Positions 23,784 to 64,000 of a stretch of 64,000 nucleotides of DNA are shown in pieces. The notes below the pieces were generated by a model. The model was not told the DNA's origin and did no database searches. It was given only the letters and a program-made list of their open reading frames with translations. The DNA lies in assembly GCA_016926175.1 (NCBI GenBank), contig JAFGPA010000009.1, positions 54 to 64,053 on the forward strand, given 5' to 3'. Position 1 is the stretch's first letter. Every line of letters starts with the position of its first letter. Position numbers and translations under genes: made by a program. The DNA is from Candidatus Micrarchaeota archaeon. Its GTDB lineage: Archaea > Micrarchaeota > Micrarchaeia > Anstonellales > Bilamarchaeaceae.

Positions 23784-26700
23784 ATGACAGCCATAAGAAG
23801 TTTGTTTGGAATGTTTTTGTTCATGGTCCTGGTTGGCAGTGTATTTGCTCAGCTGGGCCTTGGTGGCCAGTCTTTCGAAAAGGAAAGCGTGGTCTACTAT
23901 GAAACTGACGCAACACGTCAGGTCCTCACTATCAGTGTGGTGGCATTTGAGCCGGCACAATCCCAGGACGGCACTCAGCTCACTGATACCATAAAGCAAG
24001 AGCTTTTAGCCGAATGCAGGGCAGAAGGAGCAGATAATATCATGGTTTGCCTGCAGAGAAAAGCCTTGGAGAGAACTGCCGCTTCAACTGATTACAGGCT
24101 GGATATGGAATCTCTTCAGGAAGGCACTATTACAGTATATCAGTGGAATGCCATCAGCAAAACATACGTTGTGGTTCCAACATGTACCCAGATTCCAATA
24201 AACAATGTCAGAACGGTAACTGACTCAAGCGGAGAGGCTGTCGACAATTATTATACTACATGTGATCTTTCAGGTGAACTTGAAGGGGCAACCTCGGCAA
24301 GCTTTGTCATTGAATACGAACCCCAGGAAGGTTCAGGCATAGCTCCGAGTACAACCACCTATTCCTATGACAGTGCCCGTGTTGCAGGTACAGATGCTTT
24401 AACCCAGCAGATCAACCAGGTTATAAGCGCAATATCAAGTGGCGGGGCAAACGGAACCCCGGCACTTCCATGTGTTGGCATATTCCTTATTCTGGGTCTG
24501 TTGCTGTCATCACTTTATTTCGCTGGCAAATCACCAGTTTCATTGCTCGATATCACCACACCAAGACTTCCGGCACCCAAGGGAGTAGCTGCAGGCGGAC
24601 AGATGCTCATGCCTTTTGGTTATGCGGAAATGGGAAGAACCACAAAAGCTAAAATGAGGACTGCTGCCGTAGCTGCCGGAGTGACTGCAGCCGGACTTGC
24701 TACAAAAAGCAGAGGAGATGTTGAAAGGCGCCAGCTTGAAAGCCAGGTGGATGCAACAGCAGCCAAAGCAAGCCGTGCGCATGTTGTTTCAGGAGATGTT
24801 GGAGAACAGGCCAATATACAGAAGGCGCTCATAGCAGGAGGAAGAGAAGCTGGAATGAGCCGGGCAGAGCTCGATAAGCTTTCAAGAAGACTTCTCTATG
24901 ACTACGGAGATTCAGAGCACAGGACAGTTGCACAGATACTTGAAAAGCTTAAGGCAAAGGGAGGAAAAAACGCTCTCATGGCAATGACTCTCCAGGACTA
25001 TATAATAGGCCAGAGGCAGCTTAAAACACTTGAAGCAATTACAACCCATCCTGACATAGGAAAAAGAGACTATGTTAGCGGTAAAATCTCAAGTGTCACC
25101 AGCAAGGCATTTGGTGTAAACAGATATGCAATAATCGGCGGTTTTGTTCCGGCCATGGTGGGTTCAACTACAAGAACTGCAAGGCAAATGGTCAGAATGA
25201 GCAAGGCATCAGTTAAACAAGCACCCAACCTGGTCAAAGCAACAGCAAGATCCACAATTGAACTTGTTGGAGGCAAGAGAGCGGTTGAAGAGCTTGAATA
25301 CAAGGCAAAGACTTCCCAGACTGCAGGATGGTTTGCAGGGCAGCTCAAGGAGAATCCTGCGTCTGTCATTGTCGGACAGTCATTCCCGGTAAGCGACAAG
25401 GCAGGATACTTCTACAAGCAGCTCAGGGATGAGGCTCACCACGATTCAATGAGATATCTTTTAAGACAGATCTACAAGAAGATGGGTGTCAAGTTCAATG
25501 TTTCCGAAGAAGAAATGGCGCAGATGGGCCATGTTGACATGGACATCCTGAAGAGATCAGGCTACAAGCCAACAAAAGAAATGCTTGCAATGGAAGCAGA
25601 ACTCAGGGGAATATTAGGAGACAAATCAAAGAGTTTCCTGGAAAAAGTAAATGCACTGACAGCATTTGCAGAGAGATGCGGAGCACACGTAGACCACAAT
25701 GCAATTGCGTTCACACAAAAAGTGGAATCAATACATATGTCTGTGGAAACAGACCATGGCAAGATGCTCCTGCTTCAGGAAGAGCTTGAAAGGCAAAGCA
25801 GGGTCAGGGGCTCAAATGTTCATGACGATGCATTTGTATGCCATATTGGCGGAGACACCCTAAGAGGCCCGGCCATCTGGGAAACTATGGTTCTTCGTAC
25901 AATGATCTACGATGCAGAAAATGGGCACCTCCAGGGAGGTATCCGCGAAGAGCTTCTGTCAGCCAGACTTAACACTGCAAACAGACTTGCAACTCTTGAT
26001 CCAAGCCATGCAGGTGCAATGGAACAGCTTCCGGAACACATGAGAAACCAGGCACAGCTTACGGCAGTTGCAGAAAGAAACAGGTCAGAACTGGTTCAGC
26101 TGTTCTCTGAAGAAGGGAAAGCAGCATTCCAGAAATCCCACAAGGACGGAAAGTCCATGGAGTCTGCTTCACTGCATGAAATAGTTGCATTCATGTATGG
26201 CGGAGGAGTCAAAGAAAAGGCAACCGGACACGTCGATCCAAAAACAGGAAAGATGATGTGGTGGGGTGCAGACCAGGAACACACAGTTCCAAAGGATTAT
26301 GCCCTTGTCGATGTCAAAAGACACTGGGTTGACCACGTAAGTGTACAGGACAACTATGCAATAGGGCAATGGGTGGAGTCCAGGTTCACAAGGAGCTATG
26401 TTCCGGCAGCCCGGGCATCCATTGAAGCAGAGCTCGACAGAATGCCAGGTTCAGCGGCATGGACAGTTGAGGAAAGGGCAAAACAGGCCAAAAAGCTCTG
26501 GATACGGGACGAAATGATCAAGGACTTCGAGCAGAGATTCAACTCACAGTTTGCAAATAATGCCTACGGCGGAACAACAAGGGAAACTGCAAGATTCTAC
26601 AATGGCATTGCAATGGGATTCCTTGCAAAGGCACTGGAAGAAAAGGGACTTTCATCCAATCACCCGGATGCAATGTTCCTTCAGGGCATTGACCACACCA

Positions 26701-28526
26701 ATCCACAGCACATTGGAAAAATGAGAGAACTTCTCTTGCTCCACCGGGATGCATATGAGAAGGTTGCACACAGGGATGTCACATATAATGATGTTGCCAA
26801 GTCCAGCAAGCCAATGGTTATGCTCCATGAAGGTGGATTTGCATACTATCACAAGGGCATGATGCTGTCAGATGCAGACCGTGTTATGGGCGGACAGGTG
26901 TCCATCCGGGATAACAACGGCCAGATGAGGGCATTTGTTCCTGATGATGTTGTAGTGAAATTCGGAGCAAGGGATGACCTTACAGCACAGTTCTACAAGG
27001 CAAGAGGCTCAAAGGATCCAAACGAATGGCATGGATTCCTTGATGCAGCAACCAAATGGACAAAGGAAGGCAACTACAGCTATGAAAAGGAGAAAGTGCT
27101 CGCAGCAGTGCTCTGGGAATACTCCAACAGAACCTATGATTATGAAAGATTCTGGAGCAAGAGTGCAGTTACTGTTGAATCCAAGAGGGAAGTGGCTCCT
27201 GTTGCACCCTCCTTCCTTAGATTCTTTGGTGCTGACGGCCACAAATACGATACAATGATCAAACCATTCAGGGACATTGGTCTTCATGCAGGAGATTATG
27301 TCTCCAAGGTTGCACTTGAAGCAGGGGGACCTGTTCATACAGCATCCTATGAAATCACTCCGACTTCAGAGTACTACAGGCAACACTCATGGAAGCTTGC
27401 AGAGAGGATAATGTCCGGGCAGGACGTTGCCCAGCTCTCAGATGCAGAGAAAGTTGCATACAGGAATTATGCACTTTCTCAGGGTGCATACCACCAGGTT
27501 TGGGACTATTCAATTGACAGGAACCCCTGGAGAACATCCACATCATTCGGAGCTGCACAGTCATGGGCATCATTCTTCCACTTTGGTCCTGCACAGAACT
27601 TTAACGTCAGGGACAACCTCAGGGCATACATGGGCAAGGGAGAGTATACCGGCTTTATGGCAACCCATGGGTTTGCACTTGACCTTGCAGGCAAAATGAT
27701 GAGGCCATACCTTGGGGCAATAAGAGGTATGCAGATGTCTATGCAGGGATATGCATCCAAATGGGACAGCCAGGACAATGCCCTGAGACAATGGAACTAC
27801 ACACAGCCAAGGCTCAGGGAAGCACTTCAGTCACTCAACCCATTCTCATACAGATGGTTCCCAGGCAAGACAAGCGAGAATATTGCCAAGCTCAATGTCT
27901 TTGGCGGTTCACTTGAGCAGCACCAGCTTGCAGGTCCTGAATATATGGCCGGCCTCAAACAGGCTCCACAGGACATATTCCTGCAGAGAAAGGGTGTCTA
28001 TGCCTCGGCAAGAACTGGCGAAGCAAACCCGGCAGCGTCTTTCTACAACTACAGACACGAACTCATGTACGATGCTCCAATGGCAGAGTATATGATCAGG
28101 CAGAAGGACGCATCCTTCATGTACGACAAGAAAGTACAGGATGCAGCAATGAACAACACCCAGAGAAGGACAGTGTCTGCAGAAGCACTTGCAATCAGAA
28201 GGGAAGAGGAACTCAGGGGATTCGGAATTATGCAGAACCCGCTTTACGGCTGGGCCAACCCGATAGCATTCCTCTGGCACGCACCTCTTCCGATGATGCC
28301 ATCATCCCTTACGCCAAAGGACATAGTGGCAAATGCAGTGAGAAAGCACAAGTATGGCCAGGGCGGATCCTGGAATGACACAATGAACCAGCTTGGGCAG
28401 AACATATCCAAGGGAACCAAGGATATACTCTCGCCACACATGCTTCACAGGACAGTTTACTGTCCCAGCTGCGGCAGAAGCGGCTACAGGGGAGCAAGAT
28501 GCGGCTGCGGCAAGCCTCTCTATTGA
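23784..28526 (+). CDS. Orphan giant membrane-anchored protein with C-terminal zinc ribbon
   Basis: Uninterrupted 1580-codon ORF. Signal peptide, ~200-aa ectodomain, TM ALPCVGIFLILGLLLSSLYFAG, >1300-aa unassigned region, terminal CPSCGRSGYRGARCGCGKPLY. Confidence 0.85.
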   Translation: MTAIRSLFGMFLFMVLVGSVFAQLGLGGQSFEKESVVYYETDATRQVLTISVVAFEPAQSQDGTQLTDTIKQELLAECRAEGADNIMVCLQRKALERTAASTDYRLDMESLQEGTITVYQWNAISKTYVVVPTCTQIPINNVRTVTDSSGEAVDNYYTTCDLSGELEGATSASFVIEYEPQEGSGIAPSTTTYSYDSARVAGTDALTQQINQVISAISSGGANGTPALPCVGIFLILGLLLSSLYFAGKSPVSLLDITTPRLPAPKGVAAGGQMLMPFGYAEMGRTTKAKMRTAAVAAGVTAAGLATKSRGDVERRQLESQVDATAAKASRAHVVSGDVGEQANIQKALIAGGREAGMSRAELDKLSRRLLYDYGDSEHRTVAQILEKLKAKGGKNALMAMTLQDYIIGQRQLKTLEAITTHPDIGKRDYVSGKISSVTSKAFGVNRYAIIGGFVPAMVGSTTRTARQMVRMSKASVKQAPNLVKATARSTIELVGGKRAVEELEYKAKTSQTAGWFAGQLKENPASVIVGQSFPVSDKAGYFYKQLRDEAHHDSMRYLLRQIYKKMGVKFNVSEEEMAQMGHVDMDILKRSGYKPTKEMLAMEAELRGILGDKSKSFLEKVNALTAFAERCGAHVDHNAIAFTQKVESIHMSVETDHGKMLLLQEELERQSRVRGSNVHDDAFVCHIGGDTLRGPAIWETMVLRTMIYDAENGHLQGGIREELLSARLNTANRLATLDPSHAGAMEQLPEHMRNQAQLTAVAERNRSELVQLFSEEGKAAFQKSHKDGKSMESASLHEIVAFMYGGGVKEKATGHVDPKTGKMMWWGADQEHTVPKDYALVDVKRHWVDHVSVQDNYAIGQWVESRFTRSYVPAARASIEAELDRMPGSAAWTVEERAKQAKKLWIRDEMIKDFEQRFNSQFANNAYGGTTRETARFYNGIAMGFLAKALEEKGLSSNHPDAMFLQGIDHTNPQHIGKMRELLLLHRDAYEKVAHRDVTYNDVAKSSKPMVMLHEGGFAYYHKGMMLSDADRVMGGQVSIRDNNGQMRAFVPDDVVVKFGARDDLTAQFYKARGSKDPNEWHGFLDAATKWTKEGNYSYEKEKVLAAVLWEYSNRTYDYERFWSKSAVTVESKREVAPVAPSFLRFFGADGHKYDTMIKPFRDIGLHAGDYVSKVALEAGGPVHTASYEITPTSEYYRQHSWKLAERIMSGQDVAQLSDAEKVAYRNYALSQGAYHQVWDYSIDRNPWRTSTSFGAAQSWASFFHFGPAQNFNVRDNLRAYMGKGEYTGFMATHGFALDLAGKMMRPYLGAIRGMQMSMQGYASKWDSQDNALRQWNYTQPRLREALQSLNPFSYRWFPGKTSENIAKLNVFGGSLEQHQLAGPEYMAGLKQAPQDIFLQRKGVYASARTGEANPAASFYNYRHELMYDAPMAEYMIRQKDASFMYDKKVQDAAMNNTQRRTVSAEALAIRREEELRGFGIMQNPLYGWANPIAFLWHAPLPMMPSSLTPKDIVANAVRKHKYGQGGSWNDTMNQLGQNISKGTKDILSPHMLHRTVYCPSCGRSGYRGARCGCGKPLY

Positions 28527-28558
28527 TCTTTTAATTTTTTCTCTTCTAATTTTATTAT

Positions 28559-31159
28559 ATGAGATTTCCTGTTTTGCTAATTATAATGATCTTTATTTCC
28601 GGTTGCCTGCAGAGTATAGGCTCTGAAGAATTCAGAAATGACTACATCCGAAACCTGCACAGAACTCCAATAAATGATCCTTCACAGATTGAAGAATGCA
28701 AAATAGGAAGCTGCTATTGCATGGTGTGCCAGAACGGAAGTCCGATATGGGGGGGCATATGGAACAATCTTGTTGGCGGCAGATGCTACATGGAAACGGA
28801 ATGCACGCCCGAACGGGCAATGGAGCTGAGGAACAGCACAGCGACACCTGATCTTTCAATAAGAAATTTCATGCTTGGCCAGGGACCGTCCATTGGCGAC
28901 TTTTCCGATGCCAATCCCTATTGCTCCAACAAACTTTCAATGGCAGTGGAATGGCTTGTGGGGAATGCTGACAATGCCTATGAAATGCCTGATGCAGGCA
29001 GGGCACTATGCGTGCTGAGCAGGGAAATAATTCCGGTTTATATTCTTTACAGTGAAGGAGAAAATATCAATGCTGCCCGTGCAGGGGAGATTGGCCGTAG
29101 CCTTGCAAATGACGGCCAGAGCCTTTACCAGGGCTTTCTTACTCCCGGGCCGGTCGGTCCCAATATTGTTGTTACCGAAATCGATTACGATATTTCTGAT
29201 GCAGGCCAGATAATCGAGCAGATTCGTGCAGTGAAGAATGCATGCGGCGATGCCTGCTGGGTTGCTGTTGCACCAAAAATCGGTGATACCGAAGCGCTTG
29301 ATGCAGTGATGGCAAGTGCAGGGGATCAGGTTGATGTCATTGCATTTGGAGTTAATGGAAATTATGTTGATGCCTGCAGTTCTGGAAGAATAAGCTCGCA
29401 GAAGATGATGAACCAGGTTGTCAATTTCACTGAATATGCAGTTTACACCTATGGAAAGCCAGCTTTAATACCCTATATAATGTTTGATCCTGATACCACT
29501 GACATAAACGGATGCGTCTGGAAGGAAAGTGATGTGACAGCGGCATATGGCGCATTCATACCCGGAGGAATCCAGCGCCTGAGAAAAATCGGAGTGATCG
29601 GCTTTGCACCATATTCATTTAACTCAACCAGCTTTGGCTCTGTTTCCAATCCGCTGAAATGTGCCAACTGTGCAATTGCTTCAAATGAGCAAAGGCTCAG
29701 GGCATACTATGGAGCATGCCAGCAGTATACAAACATTTCAGGAACGCGGCCATCATATGGCAACGAGATTCTTTATCCAAATGAATCAGCGGGCTTCTGC
29801 GATTTCGGTACAAGCATTGAGGGCCTGCTCAGGGAGACCAGCTATGCCAGTGTGGGCGGAAACCGGGATTATCTTTCTCCAAATGCGCCGGAACTCAGGC
29901 CTGTCGGCACTCCATCATTCAGATGCAGTTCCTGCCTTTTGAGCAATATTACCTCCAATCCTGTTGCGCCGTTTAATTTTGGAGGCACAGCATCTGTTGA
30001 TTCTTCAAGTTTCCACGGCTGCATTGAATACCAGGATGAAATAAATGCATGGGCAGATGCAAGAAACCTTGATCCCATGCTTGTACGTGCATTTGCATTG
30101 ATTGAAAGCAATCTTGATCCAGGTGCGGCTGCAAGAGTGTGCAAGGAAGGATATACAGGCACAGGTCCTGACGGAAGACCATGCTTTGAAGCAAGCCCTG
30201 CACAGGATGAATGCTATTCAAATGCATACCGGATAATGGACGATCCGTCTGGAACATACGATTTTGCCGATGCTCCGGATGCAGAAGACCTTGATGAAGA
30301 CCCAGACTGGAAATGGTGCGGCCTTGGTTTTATGCAGTCACTGGAGCCTCCCTATACATTGTGGCCGGCATCTGTAAATCCAAGCGGAGAGCCCGGCGAG
30401 TTTGCGTGGGCATGCGATGATGCGGGAATCTGCTCTGAAAATCTTCTCGTTGTTGCAAGGGGATGCGCGGCGGAAACAGATCCTCCCGGGCAGTTCAATC
30501 CATTCAATATTTCACATTCACTGTGCATTGGAACATACAAGATGCAGCAGGGTCTGAACGCTGCAAGAGGAATAGTCCGCCAGATGAAAAGCGACGGCCT
30601 TCTTGTAAACAGCAATGCTGAAAACGAGGAAGTGCTTGCAGCTTATATAATGGCCCAGATGTACGGCGGTTCCTGGGGGATTACAGGAAGTAGTATGAAA
30701 ACAGTGAATGGCGTTCTTCCCCCATGCGGAAGCGAAACCTCTGCCGGGGACTGCTTCAGAAGCCTGTTTGCAGAGAATATGCGATGGAACAGGGACGCCT
30801 GCGTGGAAGACAGCGGCGGGGAACTTCCCTGGCAGTGCAGTGAAGAAGGCGTGCCAAGATGGCAACCTCCGGAATACTGTTTTGGGGAAAGCGATCCTGC
30901 TGTTTTCTGGGACCAGTGCATCCAGCCATTCCTGACAACTCCTAACAATCATGGAAATGTAAAAATGAAGCAGTTCTTTGCTCTGCAGAGTTGCAGTACC
31001 AATCTTTGTCCTGACGGCCTGAAAATGCTCAACGATATTTGCACTCCTGATGAAAGCGGAACACTAAATGAAGAGCTGTGCGAAGGCCCTGGAAGGCCGA
31101 GAATTCCTGAATCAGGAAGCTACTATGCACAGGCTGCAGAGCAGGCACAAGACAACTGA
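28559..31159 (+). CDS. Cys-rich secreted lipoprotein with alternating beta/alpha N-domain and lysozyme-like (GH23 / SLT-like) C-terminal signature
   Basis: Lipobox-like FISGC. LVRAFALIESNLDPGAAA (catalytic-Glu-like ES at nt 30104-30109), GLGFMQS (about nt 30320-30340), AYIMAQMYGG. Starts 33 nt after the giant ORF. Confidence 0.7.
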   Translation: MRFPVLLIIMIFISGCLQSIGSEEFRNDYIRNLHRTPINDPSQIEECKIGSCYCMVCQNGSPIWGGIWNNLVGGRCYMETECTPERAMELRNSTATPDLSIRNFMLGQGPSIGDFSDANPYCSNKLSMAVEWLVGNADNAYEMPDAGRALCVLSREIIPVYILYSEGENINAARAGEIGRSLANDGQSLYQGFLTPGPVGPNIVVTEIDYDISDAGQIIEQIRAVKNACGDACWVAVAPKIGDTEALDAVMASAGDQVDVIAFGVNGNYVDACSSGRISSQKMMNQVVNFTEYAVYTYGKPALIPYIMFDPDTTDINGCVWKESDVTAAYGAFIPGGIQRLRKIGVIGFAPYSFNSTSFGSVSNPLKCANCAIASNEQRLRAYYGACQQYTNISGTRPSYGNEILYPNESAGFCDFGTSIEGLLRETSYASVGGNRDYLSPNAPELRPVGTPSFRCSSCLLSNITSNPVAPFNFGGTASVDSSSFHGCIEYQDEINAWADARNLDPMLVRAFALIESNLDPGAAARVCKEGYTGTGPDGRPCFEASPAQDECYSNAYRIMDDPSGTYDFADAPDAEDLDEDPDWKWCGLGFMQSLEPPYTLWPASVNPSGEPGEFAWACDDAGICSENLLVVARGCAAETDPPGQFNPFNISHSLCIGTYKMQQGLNAARGIVRQMKSDGLLVNSNAENEEVLAAYIMAQMYGGSWGITGSSMKTVNGVLPPCGSETSAGDCFRSLFAENMRWNRDACVEDSGGELPWQCSEEGVPRWQPPEYCFGESDPAVFWDQCIQPFLTTPNNHGNVKMKQFFALQSCSTNLCPDGLKMLNDICTPDESGTLNEELCEGPGRPRIPESGSYYAQAAEQAQDN

Positions 31160-59914: not shown

Positions 59915-60289
59915 ATGCCTGCCATAACTGGTGTGTTAGGCTACGCGCTGATTGTTTTGGGCATTCTAACACTGGTACTTCCTTTGATACACGCACATTT
60001 GCACTGCAAGGCTACATCTATTTCATTTGATGACGACAAGCTCGTTCATGAAACCGGAATTCTGAACAACAGAAAAAAGAAAATCCCCGTAAATATGATC
60101 ACTGACTCTTCTTCCAGCAGAACTTTTATAGAAAAATTTCTGGGTACCGGAACACTTAGTATAAGCACCAGCGGAAGCACGGGTTACGAAATGGTATGCG
60201 ACGGGCTTGATTATTCAGAACTTGAAACCCTGCACCAGAAGCTTTATTCCAGAATCAGGATCTTAAAGGCCGAAGAGCAGAAAAAATGA
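59915..60289 (+). CDS. Bacterial-type PH domain (bPH_2 / YdbS-like) membrane protein
   Basis: TM then SISFDDDKLVHETGILNNRKKKIPVNMITD...GTGTLSISTSG. The upstream in-frame sequence encodes another TM but lacks ATG/GTG/TTG. Confidence 0.6.
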   Translation: MPAITGVLGYALIVLGILTLVLPLIHAHLHCKATSISFDDDKLVHETGILNNRKKKIPVNMITDSSSSRTFIEKFLGTGTLSISTSGSTGYEMVCDGLDYSELETLHQKLYSRIRILKAEEQKK

Positions 60290-60467
60290 TTTTGCACAGG
60301 CATTGTTTCAGGTTTTTTCCTGAGTCCGTCAGTCAATCCCCTTCTGAAAGCGGTTTAGACAGCACAAATGATTTTTGGACTTCGTCAGGATTTACCATGG
60401 CTTTTTCTGTCGAGTACCCCGGATTCCCTGCGCTTGTTTTAATAAGGTGCTGCAGCATACCCAATTT

Positions 60468-61268
60468 ATGGAAACAACTTCTGAAACATATGCGGCCATA
60501 GCCAGAGCTGCAAAAGCATTTCTTGTGGACTACGGTTTTTCCGATGAGCAGGCCACAAAGGTTGTCAGAGGATTTGGAAATGATCTGATGGAAGGGGCCG
60601 GATTAGTCTCCGCCCTGCTCGAAAACTTCAAAACTTTTGGTTTTTCAAAGGAGCAGGTGATAGGCCTTCTGTCCAAAAGCCAGTCCATCTCAGTTTACCA
60701 GCTTTCAAAGATCAATATTCAGATACATCTTCTGGCGCAAACAGGATTCCAGAAAGATAAAATCAGAAAAATGATGGCTGACAGCCCAGGAATCATAGGT
60801 TTAACTCACCAGAATATCCAATCCAAGATCGATGTGCTTAAGCATTATGGCTTCAGCCATTCGGATTCAATTGCAGTTTTTACAAAGGCACCTTCGGCCC
60901 TTGGTCTTTCGGAAGATACGCTTAATGCAAAACTTTCTGCGCTTGAATCAGATACTGTATTCCAGAGAAAAAGCCGGGGCCTTCTTTCAGTCGGGTTGAC
61001 AAAAGCCGAAGTGAAAAAAGCGGTTTTGGAATTTCCGGCAGTTCTATGTTTCAGGGAAAATGAAATAAGACGGAAAAAGCGGCTCATGCTCATAATCAGT
61101 GAAGGCGATAGGCAGGATGTTATCGATGCGGGCCGCCGGTGGATGCAGAGCGTGAAAAAAACAGCTGCCAGGTCAAGATTCCTCAAGAACAAGGGCTATT
61201 CCTGTGAAACAAAGCGCGTTTACCTCTCTGCAAAGCAGTTCAAGGATAATTTCGGAAGGTCCCTATAG
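60468..61268 (+). CDS. mTERF-like helical repeat protein
   Basis: Five ~33-aa repeats of the type L..(Y/F)GFS.EQ(V/I)..(L/V)....P..L..S...(L/I)..K(I/L), e.g. FKTFGFSKEQVIGLLSK, LKHYGFSHSDSIAVFTKAPSALGLSEDTLNAKL. Start set to METTSETY. Confidence 0.7.
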   Translation: METTSETYAAIARAAKAFLVDYGFSDEQATKVVRGFGNDLMEGAGLVSALLENFKTFGFSKEQVIGLLSKSQSISVYQLSKINIQIHLLAQTGFQKDKIRKMMADSPGIIGLTHQNIQSKIDVLKHYGFSHSDSIAVFTKAPSALGLSEDTLNAKLSALESDTVFQRKSRGLLSVGLTKAEVKKAVLEFPAVLCFRENEIRRKKRLMLIISEGDRQDVIDAGRRWMQSVKKTAARSRFLKNKGYSCETKRVYLSAKQFKDNFGRSL

Positions 61269-63536
61269 TTTTTCAAAAGCCAGTTTCTGATTTGGGAAAT
61301 AATCCGTGCTTTGGAGCATTCCGGAGTCAAATGCATTTTTCATTCTTGCAATTCCCTTCTCTTTTGAGCTGCTCATGCGGGTCAGAAGAACGCGGTTTTT
61401 CGTTTTTATCGCATACTCCCTGATCACCCAGAGTCTTGCGTGATCCGGTGTTGTCCATCTTTTCTTTGCAAGCAGCTTTTCAAGTTCTGTTGCTGCAATT
61501 TTTTGGCAGTGGCACTGGCTCTTCAGAAAATTCAGTTTGGCATATGTGCTGACAAGATGTAAATCTGCAAAACGAATTGAATGCCTGCCCATGTGATCTG
61601 CATAAAGTCTTGCTCCTAAATCACCGCTATCGCTGAGAATAACGTGTTCTTTTGCAATCAAAAATGAAAAATTATCCTTGAGGCGATACTTGCCGAGCTG
61701 GTCTACAACATGCTGAAGGGAAACCAGGGTACCTGTCTTTCCTTCCATTCTTGCCTTCCATTTATGCGGACTGTCTGTTCTGACATATGTCCAGCTGCGG
61801 ATAAGAACGTCCCTCAGGCTATCGCTTCCTTTTTTTGCATACGTTTCCCTGAGCCGTTGGGCGGTCCTTTTTCTTCCTTTCATTGCCCTTGCATCTGCCA
61901 GCATGAAATAATGCAGTCTGTTTTGCACAAGATCATCTGGCGCAGCAGTTTGTATCATGGCAAAAACATCAGAAAACGACCTCATGTTCGCTACCCAGTT
62001 GTCATAGTGGCGTTTGTCAGTTGTCAGAAGCCATGCCTTTTGCGGGGGAAATGAGGTACCGCATATGCTTTCAATCTCATCCATCCGGAAAAGCAGGCTC
62101 TCGGAGCTGTGCCTTTTTACTCTCATATGGCCGAATACTTTTTCTGCAATGCTTCTGCCGAAACTGCGGGTCAGCCTTGATTTTAGTTCCTCCCCGTTTT
62201 TTTCATCATTTTGAAGTGCATAATAAACCCTGACGCTCTCTTCAAAATCTGCAAGCGATGCATATAGTACTGCTGCAGGGCGGCGGCGTATTATCTCCTT
62301 CCAGTCTGCAGGGTGTTCGGCTTCCAGCTGACTAATCCTATTCAGCGACGTTTTCAGCGAAAGGGTTCGCCGGTTGATCTGTTCCTCCGCCTTTTCCTGG
62401 TCAAAAATCTCCCCGAGTTTCAGATAAAGCCTTTCTTCCAGCTTTTCTCTTTCTTTTTGCACTGCAGGCTGCTTTGCCTTTCTTTTTTTGTACTCTACAA
62501 TCCAATCTGAATATCGTGCCGGAGTTCCTAGAAATGACTGGGGTGCATCAGCGGCAGCTTTCTGCAGTTCTTCAGGGTACTGATTTTGGAATTCAGTTAG
62601 TCTGTCCAGAGTACGTTCAAGAAACCTGTTTTCACTGCATTTGAATGAATAGGCTGCTGCCAGCTCTGAACCTATCAGAGTACCGATCTTTCCCTTGATT
62701 TCAGTTCGAACCACCGGCGAGAGATTTTTTGCCGCATCTTCAAACTCTTCAAATTCCCTTTTCCTGCTGAAAAATGCAGACCAGGGCAGGGAAGCGGAAT
62801 ACTCCCTGCAAATGTGGGGTCTGGTGCGTGCAAGACGTTCAAGTGCAGTTTCAGGGGTAATGGTGTGGAGCCGCATCAGGTAAATCGACAGGAGTTCTCC
62901 GAGTCGTTCTTTTGGTATAAATTCCCGAAGTGCTGCTTCGAGCTCTGCCAACTTTGCTTTGCGGCCTTCTTTTTTTGATTCCAGTTTTTGAATTGTTTTC
63001 ACCTGCGCACGCTGGGCCTGGGGGCGAAGCAGAAAAAAGCCGGGGTCGATTTCCAGTTTTTCTCTGAGTTTGTTGGCCCACGCGTCACCGAATGCGGTTT
63101 TAAAGAGCAAAATCGATTTTTGAATTTCATGCGGATGTATTGCAAGTTTTTTCAATGTCTCGCGGTCCGGTACGAACCCTACCTCCTTCATGCCTGCTTT
63201 TGCATGCGCTCTTGCCTTTGACATCTGCCTCTGAAGCCGTAAAAATTCCCCGAATTCCTTTTCTCCGCTATAAATGCGGGAAGGCGAATGGGCCAGTATG
63301 TAAGCAATGGATTTTTTCCCTGCAGTGCATTTCAATTTATTTACCCGGTTTGCGATGAACTTATAGGAATATCTCTTTTGCTCTATGATCCTGATCAGGT
63401 TTTCTGCAACCTGTCTTGTGAAAAGCGGTTCCAGAAGCTCCCATAATGTTCCTGCCCGCGGTTCGACAAGCGGCGGGGGCAGAGAGCTTTTTTTTGGTGC
63501 ATTGGCAGGCATTTTTTCAGCAGCTACTCTGAGCAT
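61263..63536 (-). CDS. 757-aa basic, helical orphan protein (degenerate repeat N-region, conserved C-terminal module)
   Basis: Long clean ORF. C-terminal ~110 aa are homologous to the upstream neighbour (AATELEKLLAKKRWTTPDHARLWVIREYAIK vs AAITLRKILSKKSWNTRDETKLWIIRNFAIE). Confidence 0.7.
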   Translation of the reverse strand: MLRVAAEKMPANAPKKSSLPPPLVEPRAGTLWELLEPLFTRQVAENLIRIIEQKRYSYKFIANRVNKLKCTAGKKSIAYILAHSPSRIYSGEKEFGEFLRLQRQMSKARAHAKAGMKEVGFVPDRETLKKLAIHPHEIQKSILLFKTAFGDAWANKLREKLEIDPGFFLLRPQAQRAQVKTIQKLESKKEGRKAKLAELEAALREFIPKERLGELLSIYLMRLHTITPETALERLARTRPHICREYSASLPWSAFFSRKREFEEFEDAAKNLSPVVRTEIKGKIGTLIGSELAAAYSFKCSENRFLERTLDRLTEFQNQYPEELQKAAADAPQSFLGTPARYSDWIVEYKKRKAKQPAVQKEREKLEERLYLKLGEIFDQEKAEEQINRRTLSLKTSLNRISQLEAEHPADWKEIIRRRPAAVLYASLADFEESVRVYYALQNDEKNGEELKSRLTRSFGRSIAEKVFGHMRVKRHSSESLLFRMDEIESICGTSFPPQKAWLLTTDKRHYDNWVANMRSFSDVFAMIQTAAPDDLVQNRLHYFMLADARAMKGRKRTAQRLRETYAKKGSDSLRDVLIRSWTYVRTDSPHKWKARMEGKTGTLVSLQHVVDQLGKYRLKDNFSFLIAKEHVILSDSGDLGARLYADHMGRHSIRFADLHLVSTYAKLNFLKSQCHCQKIAATELEKLLAKKRWTTPDHARLWVIREYAIKTKNRVLLTRMSSSKEKGIARMKNAFDSGMLQSTDYFPNQKLAFEKL

Positions 63537-64000
63537 AGTTTCACCATGTGGTTAGCGGAAAGATCCGGATTGTATTCCCGGTGGAGTGGCGGTCCTGACT
63601 GGAAAAGTGACCTTAGCCTCGTCCCGCTCATCAGCAGTTGGAGCTTTGATTCATTCTGTTCTATTGCAAAATTTCTGATGATCCAGAGTTTTGTTTCGTC
63701 CCTGGTGTTCCAGGATTTTTTTGAAAGAATTTTCCTGAGTGTTATTGCTGCGAGTTCTGCCGCCTTCTTTCTGTCCTTTGCAAAAAACAGGCGTAAATGA
63801 AGGCCAAGGAGCGGGGCATCAATCTTTCTTATCTGCTGTTCGCCATTTGCACCCCTTGTTACCCTGATTGCGATGTCATTGTCATTTGACAATGCGATGT
63901 ATGCGGCATTTTCAGGTATGTCCGGTTGATTTGAAATCAGCAGTGGCTGGCGTTTTTTGAGTCTGCAAACAAATCTCATCAGCGGAATGCGGGAAAAGCC
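63524..64000 (-). CDS. Paralog of the 757-aa protein C-terminal module (possibly 5'-truncated by the window edge)
   Basis: The frame remains open from ATG 63979 to nt 64000. 13-nt overlap with the downstream paralog. Confidence 0.55.
   Translation of the reverse strand, partial: GFSRIPLMRFVCRLKKRQPLLISNQPDIPENAAYIALSNDNDIAIRVTRGANGEQQIRKIDAPLLGLHLRLFFAKDRKKAAELAAITLRKILSKKSWNTRDETKLWIIRNFAIEQNESKLQLLMSGTRLRSLFQSGPPLHREYNPDLSANHMVKLCSE

What the first reader, a model, noticed from the sequence alone, without database searches (positions are those of the whole stretch)
60468..61268. Clear mTERF-type repeat protein in an archaeal genome
The 266-aa protein consists almost entirely of five ~33-aa repeats matching the mTERF consensus:
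- FLVDYGFSDEQATKVVRGFGNDL
- FKTFGFSKEQVIGLLSKSQSISVYQLSKINIQI
- LAQTGFQKDKIRKMMADSPGIIGLTHQNIQSKI
- LKHYGFSHSDSIAVFTKAPSALGLSEDTLNAKL
- LLSVGLTKAEVKKAVLEFPAVLCFRENEI
mTERF proteins are known as organellar nucleic-acid-binding regulators of eukaryotes, and prokaryotic members are at best rare. Together with the DNase I homolog at 41 kb, this is a second eukaryote-type family in the window.
Basis: partly seen in the sequence, partly recalled or inferred. Interest (0 to 1): 0.62.

Follow-up and report, generated by a model that had tools for sequence, protein, structure and literature searches.

The report
Archaeal mTERF-family helical repeat protein
A tiny symbiotic-type archaeon (Micrarchaeota) encodes a genuine, native member of the mTERF nucleic-acid-binding repeat family, which the literature treats as a eukaryotic organelle family. 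The same family is scattered through about a tenth of Micrarchaeota genomes and through some bacteria, so the oddity is real but not unique.

Summary
The ORF at 60468-61268 (+) is real: 266 aa, starting at the ATG that its homologues also use. It matches Pfam mTERF (PF02536) at E=3e-21, 76 bits against a cut-off of 23. It matches human MTERF1 directly by phmmer. With an 8-sequence alignment it folds confidently (pLDDT 87) into a solenoid, and its 18 best PDB matches are all mTERF-type proteins (MTERF3 TM 0.75).

The protein has five 35-residue three-helix units, a beta-hairpin insert and a two-unit basic C-terminal cap. It is basic overall (pI 9.8).

The contig is archaeal and the gene's codon use is native. 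PF02536 matches 44 of 401 genomes of the same phylum. The nearest relatives are Micrarchaeota proteins, then bacterial ones from a Deltaproteobacteria MAG and from gut Firmicutes. Eukaryotic mTERFs are no closer, so contamination or recent transfer from a eukaryote is unlikely. Deep relationships stay unresolved (AU p=0.49).

The most likely function is a nucleic-acid-binding solenoid, either a DNA-binding regulator or roadblock, or an RNA or ribosome factor. This is inferred, not shown.

Bacterial "pTERF" proteins were described in 2024. No paper in the library searched mentions archaeal mTERFs. I file it as a new member of a known kind, of moderate interest.

The parts
60468..61268 (+). Coding sequence of the 266-aa mTERF-family protein (P0001), stop codon included
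   Evidence: ORF list and translation. Pfam PF02536 E=3e-21. AF2 pLDDT 87.2 with mTERF-only top PDB fold matches.
60437..60445 (+). TATA-like box TTTTAATAA, centred about 27 nt before the ATG. A likely archaeal promoter of a leaderless or near-leaderless mRNA (inferred).
   Evidence: Read directly from the sequence.
60468..60596 (+). N-terminal capping helix plus unit 1 (aa 1-43), a degenerate unit without the proline
   Evidence: Helices 5-22, 26-42 in the model. Unit register from the YGF anchor.
60597..60701 (+). Unit 2 (aa 44-78), degenerate (Gln in place of Pro)
   Evidence: Helices 45-56, 61-70, 72-76.
60702..60806 (+). Unit 3 (aa 79-113), canonical: Pro107 with hydrophobic residues 3, 10 and 17 positions after it
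   Evidence: Helices 79-92, 96-105, 107-111. Motif read directly from the sequence.
60807..60911 (+). Unit 4 (aa 114-148), canonical (Pro142)
   Evidence: Helices 114-126, 131-140, 142-146. P142 is nearly invariant in the subfamily.
60912..61055 (+). Unit 5 (aa 149-196), with a subfamily-specific beta-hairpin insert (aa 163-175) between helix 1 and helix 2. Canonical Pro190.
   Evidence: Strands 163-167 and 171-175, helices 149-160, 179-188, 190-194. The 'NLEKxRxFxNGF' insert is conserved in the subfamily and P190 is invariant.
61056..61265 (+). Two-unit basic C-terminal cap (aa 197-266). It holds 'SEGDxxxxxxxGxxWMQS...R..FL' and is net +11. It aligns with the C-terminal module of bacterial and eukaryotic mTERFs.
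   Evidence: Alignments A1-A3. Charge count. 138 of 163 sequences tested (the 150 best hits plus 13 ORFs from related genomes) cover at least 140 of the 179 positions of this module. The Pfam match runs to profile position 305 of 314.

Best explanation
The gene encodes a native, cytoplasmic, strongly basic mTERF-fold solenoid. It has five 35-residue three-helix units, a beta-hairpin insert and a conserved two-unit basic cap. It belongs to a Micrarchaeota subfamily of the prokaryotic branch of the mTERF family. It most likely works as mTERF proteins do elsewhere: the superhelix wraps a nucleic acid along its positively charged concave face. The favoured target is double-stranded DNA at a few specific sites, as for human MTERF1 and bacterial pTERF1/2. 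There the bound protein would act as a roadblock or regulator of transcription. It is a stand-alone gene with its own promoter-like element and no conserved partner gene. It is an accessory function rather than a core one. Shown here: family membership, predicted fold, archaeal and native status, and distribution. Inferred: nucleic-acid binding, the choice of DNA over RNA, and the regulatory role. My confidence in membership is about 0.95 and in the DNA-binding regulator mechanism about 0.5.
For: - Profile match: Pfam mTERF 76 bits, E=3e-21.
- Sequence match to structures: phmmer matches human MTERF1 chains at E=6e-5.
- Fold: the AF2 model (pLDDT 87.2, pTM 0.78) is made of three-helix units. 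The 18 best Foldseek PDB matches are all mTERF-type proteins, either named MTERF1/3/4 or chains of mitoribosome entries: MTERF1-DNA complexes E=6e-7 and TM 0.63, MTERF3 TMq 0.75 and rmsd 4.1, and MTERF4.
- Motif: the classical features (Pro, then hydrophobic residues at +3, +10 and +17) are present in units 3-5, read directly from the sequence. The motif definition is as cited in PMC11417379.
- Charge: pI 9.79, net charge +15, and all subfamily members have pI 9-10.
- Binding precedent: bacterial pTERF1/2 bind specific dsDNA motifs at nanomolar Kd (PMC11417379).
- Variable patch: in relatives with homogenised arrays, the units differ almost only at positions 24-34, around the proline, while helices 1-2 stay identical. 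This is what a recognition patch would look like.
- Native status: codon use is within the range of neighbouring genes. Tetranucleotide signature is within the genome's range and typical on both flanks.
- Distribution: the family is present in 44 of 401 genomes and 23 of 155 genera of the phylum.
- Independent assemblies: named Micrarchaeota and Anstonellales MAGs carry orthologues.
- Accessory rather than core: patchy presence, 1-7 matched stretches per genome, variable unit number among syntenic orthologues, and no shared neighbours between clades.
Against: - No binding data exist for any archaeal member.
- The three MTERF1 residues compared are not conserved in the alignment (F243 to G108, Y288 to T151, F322 to C194). 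Two of them (F243, Y288), by recalled knowledge, help stabilise flipped bases. An MTERF1-type base-flipping terminator mechanism is therefore not predicted.
- The best global structural match is MTERF3. From recalled knowledge, MTERF3 acts in ribosome biogenesis as well as in transcription.
- Some eukaryotic mTERFs bind RNA or proteins.
- The units of this particular protein are highly diverged (18% identity), so nothing supports a TALE-like code for it.
- The AF2 alignment was shallow (8 rows), and the single-sequence model was poor (pLDDT 50).
Confidence: 0.6

Rival explanations
1. The protein is an RNA-binding factor for ribosome biogenesis or RNA maturation. It would hold rRNA or another structured RNA, as human MTERF3, MTERF4-NSUN4 or plant mTERF9 do, rather than binding DNA.
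For: - The best global fold match is MTERF3 (TMq 0.75), and MTERF4 in mitoribosome assembly intermediates is also matched.
- The three MTERF1 residues compared (F243, Y288, F322) are absent.
- A gut Firmicutes homologue pair sits between era and recO in the ybeY-dgkA-era-recO-glyS cluster, next to 16S rRNA maturation genes.
- In the window, deoxyhypusine synthase, a translation-related gene, lies two genes upstream.
Against: - Only 11% of genomes of the phylum have any mTERF match. Matches per genome range from 1 to 7 and unit number varies. A core ribosome factor would not be expected to behave this way.
- There is no adjacent methyltransferase or other partner, and no conserved neighbours between clades.
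Confidence: 0.25
2. The protein is a protein-protein interaction scaffold on an mTERF fold, with no nucleic-acid ligand.
For: - Alpha-solenoids often bind proteins.
- MTERF4 uses its C-terminus to bind NSUN4 (entries 4fp9 and 4fzv appear among the matches).
- The conserved cap and beta-hairpin could form a docking surface.
Against: - The whole subfamily is very basic (pI 9-10).
- Every characterised mTERF or pTERF has a nucleic-acid ligand (PMC11417379, and established knowledge).
- No conserved partner gene was found.
Confidence: 0.08
3. The gene is not archaeal. It would be eukaryotic contamination, an assembly chimera, or a very recent transfer from a eukaryote.
For: - The family is best known from eukaryotes.
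- The 60-70 kb stretch of the contig has a slightly atypical tetranucleotide signature, at the 5th-12th percentile.
Against: - The gene is intron-less and has native codon use.
- Archaeal genes lie on both sides and the signature is typical at 70-85 kb.
- MAG contamination is 0.41%.
- Homologues occur in 44 independent Micrarchaeota genomes and in named MAGs.
- In the tree the protein is basal in an 11-member Micrarchaeota clade (SH-aLRT 81-83). Eukaryotic sequences are in a separate group and score worse than bacterial ones.
Confidence: 0.03

Closest known systems
Eukaryotic mTERF family (Pfam PF02536): human MTERF1, MTERF3 and MTERF4, and plant mTERFs
   Same: - The profile is matched well above its cut-off.
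- The unit is the same 35-residue three-helix motif, with Pro and a hydrophobic ladder.
- The predicted superhelical fold is the same (TM 0.63-0.75).
- The C-terminal module is homologous.
- The protein carries a basic charge.
   Different: - It is encoded by an archaeon and has no organellar presequence.
- The three MTERF1 residues compared (F243, Y288, F322) are not conserved.
- It has a beta-hairpin insert between helices 1 and 2 of unit 5, and an 'SEGDK...WMQS' cap that mark a Micrarchaeota (plus a few bacteria) subfamily.
- Identity to human MTERF1 is only 16-18%.
pTERF1/pTERF2, prokaryotic mTERF-like DNA-binding tandem-repeat proteins of Bacillota MAGs (Hu et al., Nucleic Acids Res 2024, PMC11417379; pTERF1 = MBQ3414883.1)
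   Same: - Both are prokaryotic proteins with mTERF motifs.
- Both have a 35-residue period (supplement).
- Unit number varies in both.
- pTERF has demonstrated sequence-specific dsDNA binding, which is the best functional precedent.
   Different: - pTERF was reported only from Bacteria, and its units are described as lacking the conserved Pro and Leu features, with 9-18% identity to eukaryotic mTERFs. The window's protein is archaeal, keeps the classical motif in three units and scores 76 bits on the Pfam model.
- No direct sequence comparison was possible because the pTERF sequences were not at hand.
TAL effectors and TALE-like modular DNA readers (a functional analogy only)
   Same: Relatives in Anstonellales have near-identical 35-residue units that differ only in a short patch. 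This is the logic of a modular reader.
   Different: - The fold family is different.
- The window's own protein has diverged units (18% identity), and there is no evidence of a one-unit-one-base code.

Membership tests
mTERF family (Pfam PF02536 / SMART SM00733) | Significant match to the family profile above the curated cut-off | tested here: met
   76.1 bits against a cut-off of 23.1, E=3e-21, one stretch covering residues 51-251. The six-frame genome search also gives 68.7 bits.
mTERF family (Pfam PF02536 / SMART SM00733) | Tandem units of about 30-35 residues with Pro at position 8 and hydrophobic residues at 11, 18 and 25 (definition as cited in PMC11417379) | tested here: met
   Units 3, 4 and 5 (Pro107, Pro142, Pro190) carry I/L/L at +3, I/L/I at +10 and L/L/M at +17. 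Units 1 and 2 are degenerate (N and Q in place of P). Read directly from the translation; definition.
mTERF family (Pfam PF02536 / SMART SM00733) | Superhelical solenoid of three-helix units (two alpha-helices plus a short third helix) | tested here: met
   This is a predicted structure, not an experimental one. AF2 gives pLDDT 87.2 and pTM 0.78 with repeating long-long-short helix triplets. The 18 best Foldseek PDB matches are all mTERF-type proteins.
mTERF family (Pfam PF02536 / SMART SM00733) | Binds nucleic acid (dsDNA or RNA) | not testable with these tools
   Only indirect evidence: pI 9.79 and net charge +15.
mTERF family (Pfam PF02536 / SMART SM00733) | Nucleus-encoded and targeted to mitochondria or chloroplasts (the classical description) | tested here: not met
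   The gene is encoded in a 1.05-Mb Micrarchaeota genome and has no N-terminal extension relative to its homologues. This is a feature of the historical description, not of the fold or profile.
MTERF1-type base-flipping transcription terminator | The two residues, of the stacking triad R162, F243 and Y288, that the alignment covers (F243, Y288), plus F322 | tested here: not met
   In the phmmer alignment to the mutant chains 5crk and 5crj, F243 aligns with G108, Y288 with T151 and F322 with C194. R162 lies outside the aligned stretch.
pTERF family (Hu et al. 2024) | Sequence homology to pTERF1 (MBQ3414883.1) or pTERF2 | not tested
   The sequences are not in the held text or supplements. The shared features are a 35-residue period, prokaryotic origin and mTERF motifs.
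Micrarchaeota 'cap' subfamily (defined here) | Beta-hairpin insert 'NLEKxRxFxNGF', the cap 'xEGDKxEMxxxGxxWMQSxxKTxxRAxxL', and pI 9-10 | tested here: met
   Alignments A1-A3 with invariant P190, K203, R205, G213, S228, R235, L239 and F258. The clade has SH-aLRT 81-83.

The most novel reading that the evidence does not exclude
Micrarchaeota, and perhaps DPANN archaea more widely, would hold an undescribed radiation of mTERF proteins that act as modular, fast-evolving, sequence-reading nucleic-acid binders. A hypervariable patch around the unit's proline would set specificity. This prokaryotic stock, possibly with the archaeal branch as sister, would be the source of the eukaryotic organellar mTERF family. 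The data do not reject a tree that joins the archaeal clade with the eukaryotes (AU p=0.49).
Probability: 0.15. Interest if true: 0.75.

Novelty: new member of a known kind. Interest (0 to 1): 0.5.

Why it matters
mTERF proteins are usually described as a eukaryotic invention for controlling organelle genomes. The only paper I found that describes prokaryotic relatives (2024) reports distant bacterial 'pTERF' proteins. I found no paper in the held library that links mTERF with DPANN or Micrarchaeota, and NCBIfam has no model for these proteins.

A canonical, confidently folding mTERF occurs in about 11% of Micrarchaeota genomes. Its C-terminal module is shared with bacterial and eukaryotic members. 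Together these make the origin of the family testable.

The protein is small (266 aa) and soluble-looking, so it is a practical archaeal member for binding and structural work. For this individual gene the finding is confirmatory rather than startling, because it is one diverged member of a family that is already visible in databases.

Tried and rejected
- **Word-index homology search.** It returned only the query itself, or 3 proteins when given an alignment. The exhaustive HMMER search was needed instead.
- **Single-sequence AF2.** It gave an unusable model (pLDDT 50).
- **Locus search with alignment A1.** A2 worked but its patterns were specific to the cap, so the GTDB-wide scan gave only 3 loci. 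It cannot speak to other archaeal phyla.
- **Viral contigs.** No relative was found.
- **PADLOC, PHROGs and NCBIfam.** No meaningful hit, so there is no defence-system or phage link.
- **Flanking repeats or a mobile-cassette signature.** Only short chance-level repeats lie around the gene. The sigma-70 and terminator scan was uninformative for an archaeon.
- **Empty-site comparison with the same-genus genome G021.** This was not possible, because its dys is only 28% identical and lies on another contig.
- **Neighbour as a hidden mTERF.** BLASTP gives E=0.26 and Pfam gives nothing. I did not pursue it further.
- **Read-level check of contig continuity and expression.** I used codon and tetranucleotide checks in its place.
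- **Deep phylogeny.** The AU test is inconclusive. The group labels 'low-GC' and 'eukaryote-like' were assigned by me from composition. Named or context-checked anchors are few: Turnera subulata, a human MTERF1 fragment, an Anstonellales MAG, a Deltaproteobacteria MAG and a gut Firmicutes contig.

Full report
**1. The observation**

The + strand ORF runs from the ATG at 60468 to the TAA at 61266-61268 and encodes 266 residues.

A longer frame from a TTG at 60375 exists. Homologues, however, begin about 24 residues before the first 'YGFS' motif, exactly as the ATG start does.

A TATA-like TTTTAATAA lies at 60437-60445, centred about 27 nt before the ATG. I read this as the promoter of a leaderless archaeal mRNA. 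That is an inference.

The 3' end overlaps a convergent gene by 6 nt.

**2. Is it mTERF?**

- Pfam PF02536 matches at E=3e-21, 76.1 bits against a gathering cut-off of 23.1. One stretch covers residues 51-251 and profile positions 109-305 of 314.
- phmmer against PDB sequences finds human MTERF1 chains at E=6e-5 to 4e-4, and more weakly MTERF3 and MTERF4.
- Single-sequence AlphaFold2 was poor (pLDDT 50).
- Foldseek against the PDB returned only mTERF-type proteins (named MTERF1, MTERF3 and MTERF4, or chains of mitoribosome entries) in the first 18 places. MTERF1-DNA complexes score E=6e-7, TM 0.63. MTERF3 (3m66) scores TMq 0.75, rmsd 4.1. MTERF4 also appears. Designed toroids follow only at E>0.03.

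Read from the model, the protein has an N-terminal helix and five 35-residue units of two helices plus a short third helix. Unit 5 holds a beta-hairpin (strands 163-167 and 171-175). A two-unit C-terminal cap follows.

Units 3-5 keep the classical motif: Pro, then hydrophobic residues at +3, +10 and +17. The definition is as cited in PMC11417379. Units 1-2 are degenerate.

The units are only 18% identical to one another, so this is an old array, not a homogenised one.

**3. Is it archaeal and native?**

The window is part of an 86-kb contig of a 1.05-Mb, 39-contig genome with 93% completeness and 0.41% contamination.

- The window carries Topo VI A and B, deoxyhypusine synthase and Na+/H+ antiporters.
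- The 20 kb to the right carry RtcB, a DEAD-box helicase and aldehyde dehydrogenase.
- Earlier notes call the genome Micrarchaeota.
- Independently, the orthologue-bearing records found by pattern scan are titled Candidatus Micrarchaeota, Anstonellales and Micrarchaeia.
- Codon use of the gene (distance 0.097, GC 0.448, GC3 0.464) lies within the range of neighbouring genes of similar length.
- The tetranucleotide correlation with the genome is 0.915 for 60-65 kb (12th percentile), 0.897 for 65-70 kb (5th percentile) and 0.96 for 70-85 kb. The stretch is mildly atypical but bracketed by typical sequence. I see no sign of a foreign join.
- Read-level confirmation was not possible.

**4. Distribution and relatives**

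- PF02536 matches 15 of 61 close relatives and 44 of 401 genomes of the phylum. That is 23 of 155 genera, and 41 genomes score over the cut-off. It matches none of the 14 control genomes.
- Genomes carry up to 7 matched stretches. Several hits lie at contig ends or contain assembly gaps, which is typical of near-identical repeats.
- The exhaustive search of 1.84 billion representatives gave 489 hits at E<=1e-3 and 107 at E<=1e-10.
- The best hits (E=7e-48 to 1e-23) share the beta-hairpin insert and the cap 'EGDKxEM..G..WMQS..KT..RA..L'. One member of this subfamily is named Candidatus Anstonellales.
- The next group holds a Deltaproteobacteria MAG protein (MDD5305851.1). Its contig carries LpoB, a murein peptidase, ClpB and Ffh.
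- Most of the remaining top 150 are low-GC proteins. A relative of one such hit lies in a human-gut contig between era and recO, in the Firmicutes cluster S21-yabP-yqfD-ybeY-dgkA-era-recO-glyS.
- Eukaryote-like sequences enter only at E of about 1e-18, among them a Turnera subulata protein.
- 138 of 163 sequences tested (the 150 best hits plus 13 ORFs from related genomes) cover at least 140 of the 179 positions of the query's C-terminal module (three units plus the cap). The module therefore appears to be shared by all three domains.

**5. Phylogeny**

A tree of that module (129 rows, LG+C20+F+G4 PMSF, quick search) places the window's protein at the base of an 11-member Micrarchaeota clade (SH-aLRT 83). 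The Deltaproteobacteria pair is its sister (82). 14 eukaryote-like rows form a separate clade (88) on the low-GC bacterial side.

I then added a human MTERF1 fragment copied from the tool's own alignment. The eukaryotes remain one group, without support, and the archaeal clade remains one group (81).

An AU test does not reject a tree that joins the archaeal clade and the eukaryotes (p=0.49).

- What is shown: the protein is not nested among the sampled eukaryotes, and its nearest kin are prokaryotic.
- What is not resolved: whether archaeal, bacterial or neither lineage is closest to eukaryotic mTERFs.
- Limits: most group labels are my own, made from composition, and eukaryotic sampling is thin.

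**6. Context**

- Upstream lies a small bPH_2 membrane protein (59915-60289), and beyond it dys.
- Downstream, and convergent, lie two tandem orphan paralogues.
- Orthologues in Anstonellales are syntenic with each other: an acidic 320-aa protein upstream, and a signal-peptidase-like protein, Lon and TldD downstream. They share nothing with this locus, and their unit number differs.
- No defence, phage or NCBIfam family matches. No viral contig carries a relative. No flanking repeats mark a cassette.

The gene is a stand-alone accessory gene.

**7. Mechanism**

The protein has pI 9.79 (42 K/R against 27 D/E). The cap is net +11 and all subfamily members have pI 9-10. It has no signal peptide or hydrophobic segment.

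By homology and charge I infer that a nucleic acid is bound along the solenoid's concave face. Bacterial pTERF1/2 bind specific dsDNA motifs at nanomolar Kd (PMC11417379), and MTERF1 wraps dsDNA in the structures matched.

In relatives with homogenised arrays (G044, G172), the units are identical through helices 1-2 and differ only at positions 24-34, around the proline. This is as expected of a specificity patch.

Three points cut against a strict MTERF1-type mechanism:

- The aligned equivalents of F243, Y288 and F322 are G108, T151 and C194.
- The best global match is MTERF3.
- The Firmicutes homologues sit beside rRNA-maturation genes.

An RNA or ribosome role is therefore a serious rival. 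The patchy distribution argues against a core ribosomal function.

I put membership at about 0.95, nucleic-acid binding at about 0.85, and DNA-binding regulator or roadblock at about 0.5 against about 0.25 for an RNA factor.

**8. Comparison and novelty**

The protein is a member of the mTERF family by profile, motif and predicted fold. It fails only the historical criterion of organellar targeting.

The closest published prokaryotic precedent is pTERF (Bacillota MAGs, period 35). Its authors called it the first prokaryotic class and described it as lacking the Pro/Leu motif. The present protein is archaeal and more canonical.

No paper in the held library combines mTERF with DPANN or Micrarchaeota. 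Earlier notes of this scan had already seen mTERF-like proteins in DPANN genomes. I used these notes as leads, and I confirmed the distribution independently for this phylum.

Verdict: a new (archaeal) member of a known kind, of moderate interest.

Noticed in passing
window 61263-63536 (-) and 63524-64000+ (-), continuing to C11:64707: Two tandem orphan paralogues lie convergent to the mTERF gene: one of 757 aa and one open frame of about 439 aa. They share a C-terminal module (31% identity, E=2e-16). Neither has a Pfam, NCBIfam, PADLOC or PHROG match. Among 61 related genomes the family was found only in this genome and in G021.
   Followed up: partly
From recalled knowledge that family is common in prokaryotes, so it is not evidence of a second eukaryote-specific gene.
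   Followed up: partly
L043 7605-8702 and L044 361-1458 (human-gut metagenome contigs): In a sporulating Firmicutes-type contig, two adjacent mTERF genes (128 and 233 aa) sit between era and recO, inside the S21-yabP-yqfD-ybeY-dgkA-era-recO-glyS cluster. This places them next to 16S rRNA maturation and 30S assembly genes, which hints at an RNA or ribosome role for the bacterial branch.
   Followed up: no
G000:C11 about 61-70 kb (window 61263-64000 plus L047 1-6527): This is a run of genes that are mostly orphans: the 757-aa and about 439-aa paralogues, a HAD-like hydrolase, 241-aa and 824-aa proteins with no Pfam match, and a Fic/DOC protein. Its tetranucleotide signature is slightly atypical (5th-12th percentile). 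It may be an accessory island, with the mTERF gene at its edge.
   Followed up: partly
L033 4992-6651 (Ca. Anstonellales JAWAFD010000002.1), L017, L032 and other contig-end hits: Several Micrarchaeota mTERF genes have near-identical 35-37-residue units, with 78-85% identity between units in two genomes measured (G044, G172). They contain assembly gaps (runs of N) or break contigs. Within these arrays the variation is confined to unit positions 24-34, around the conserved proline.
   Followed up: partly
window 25001-30000: This chunk has the lowest tetranucleotide correlation with the genome on the contig (0.736, 1st percentile) and a higher GC (0.479). It coincides with the 1580-aa giant protein gene that other reports have already described.
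   Followed up: no
window 59915-60289 (+): A small 124-aa protein with a hydrophobic N-terminal segment and a bacterial PH domain (bPH_2, PF03703, E=3e-10) lies directly upstream of the mTERF gene on the same strand, 178 nt away. The pairing is not conserved in other genomes.
   Followed up: partly
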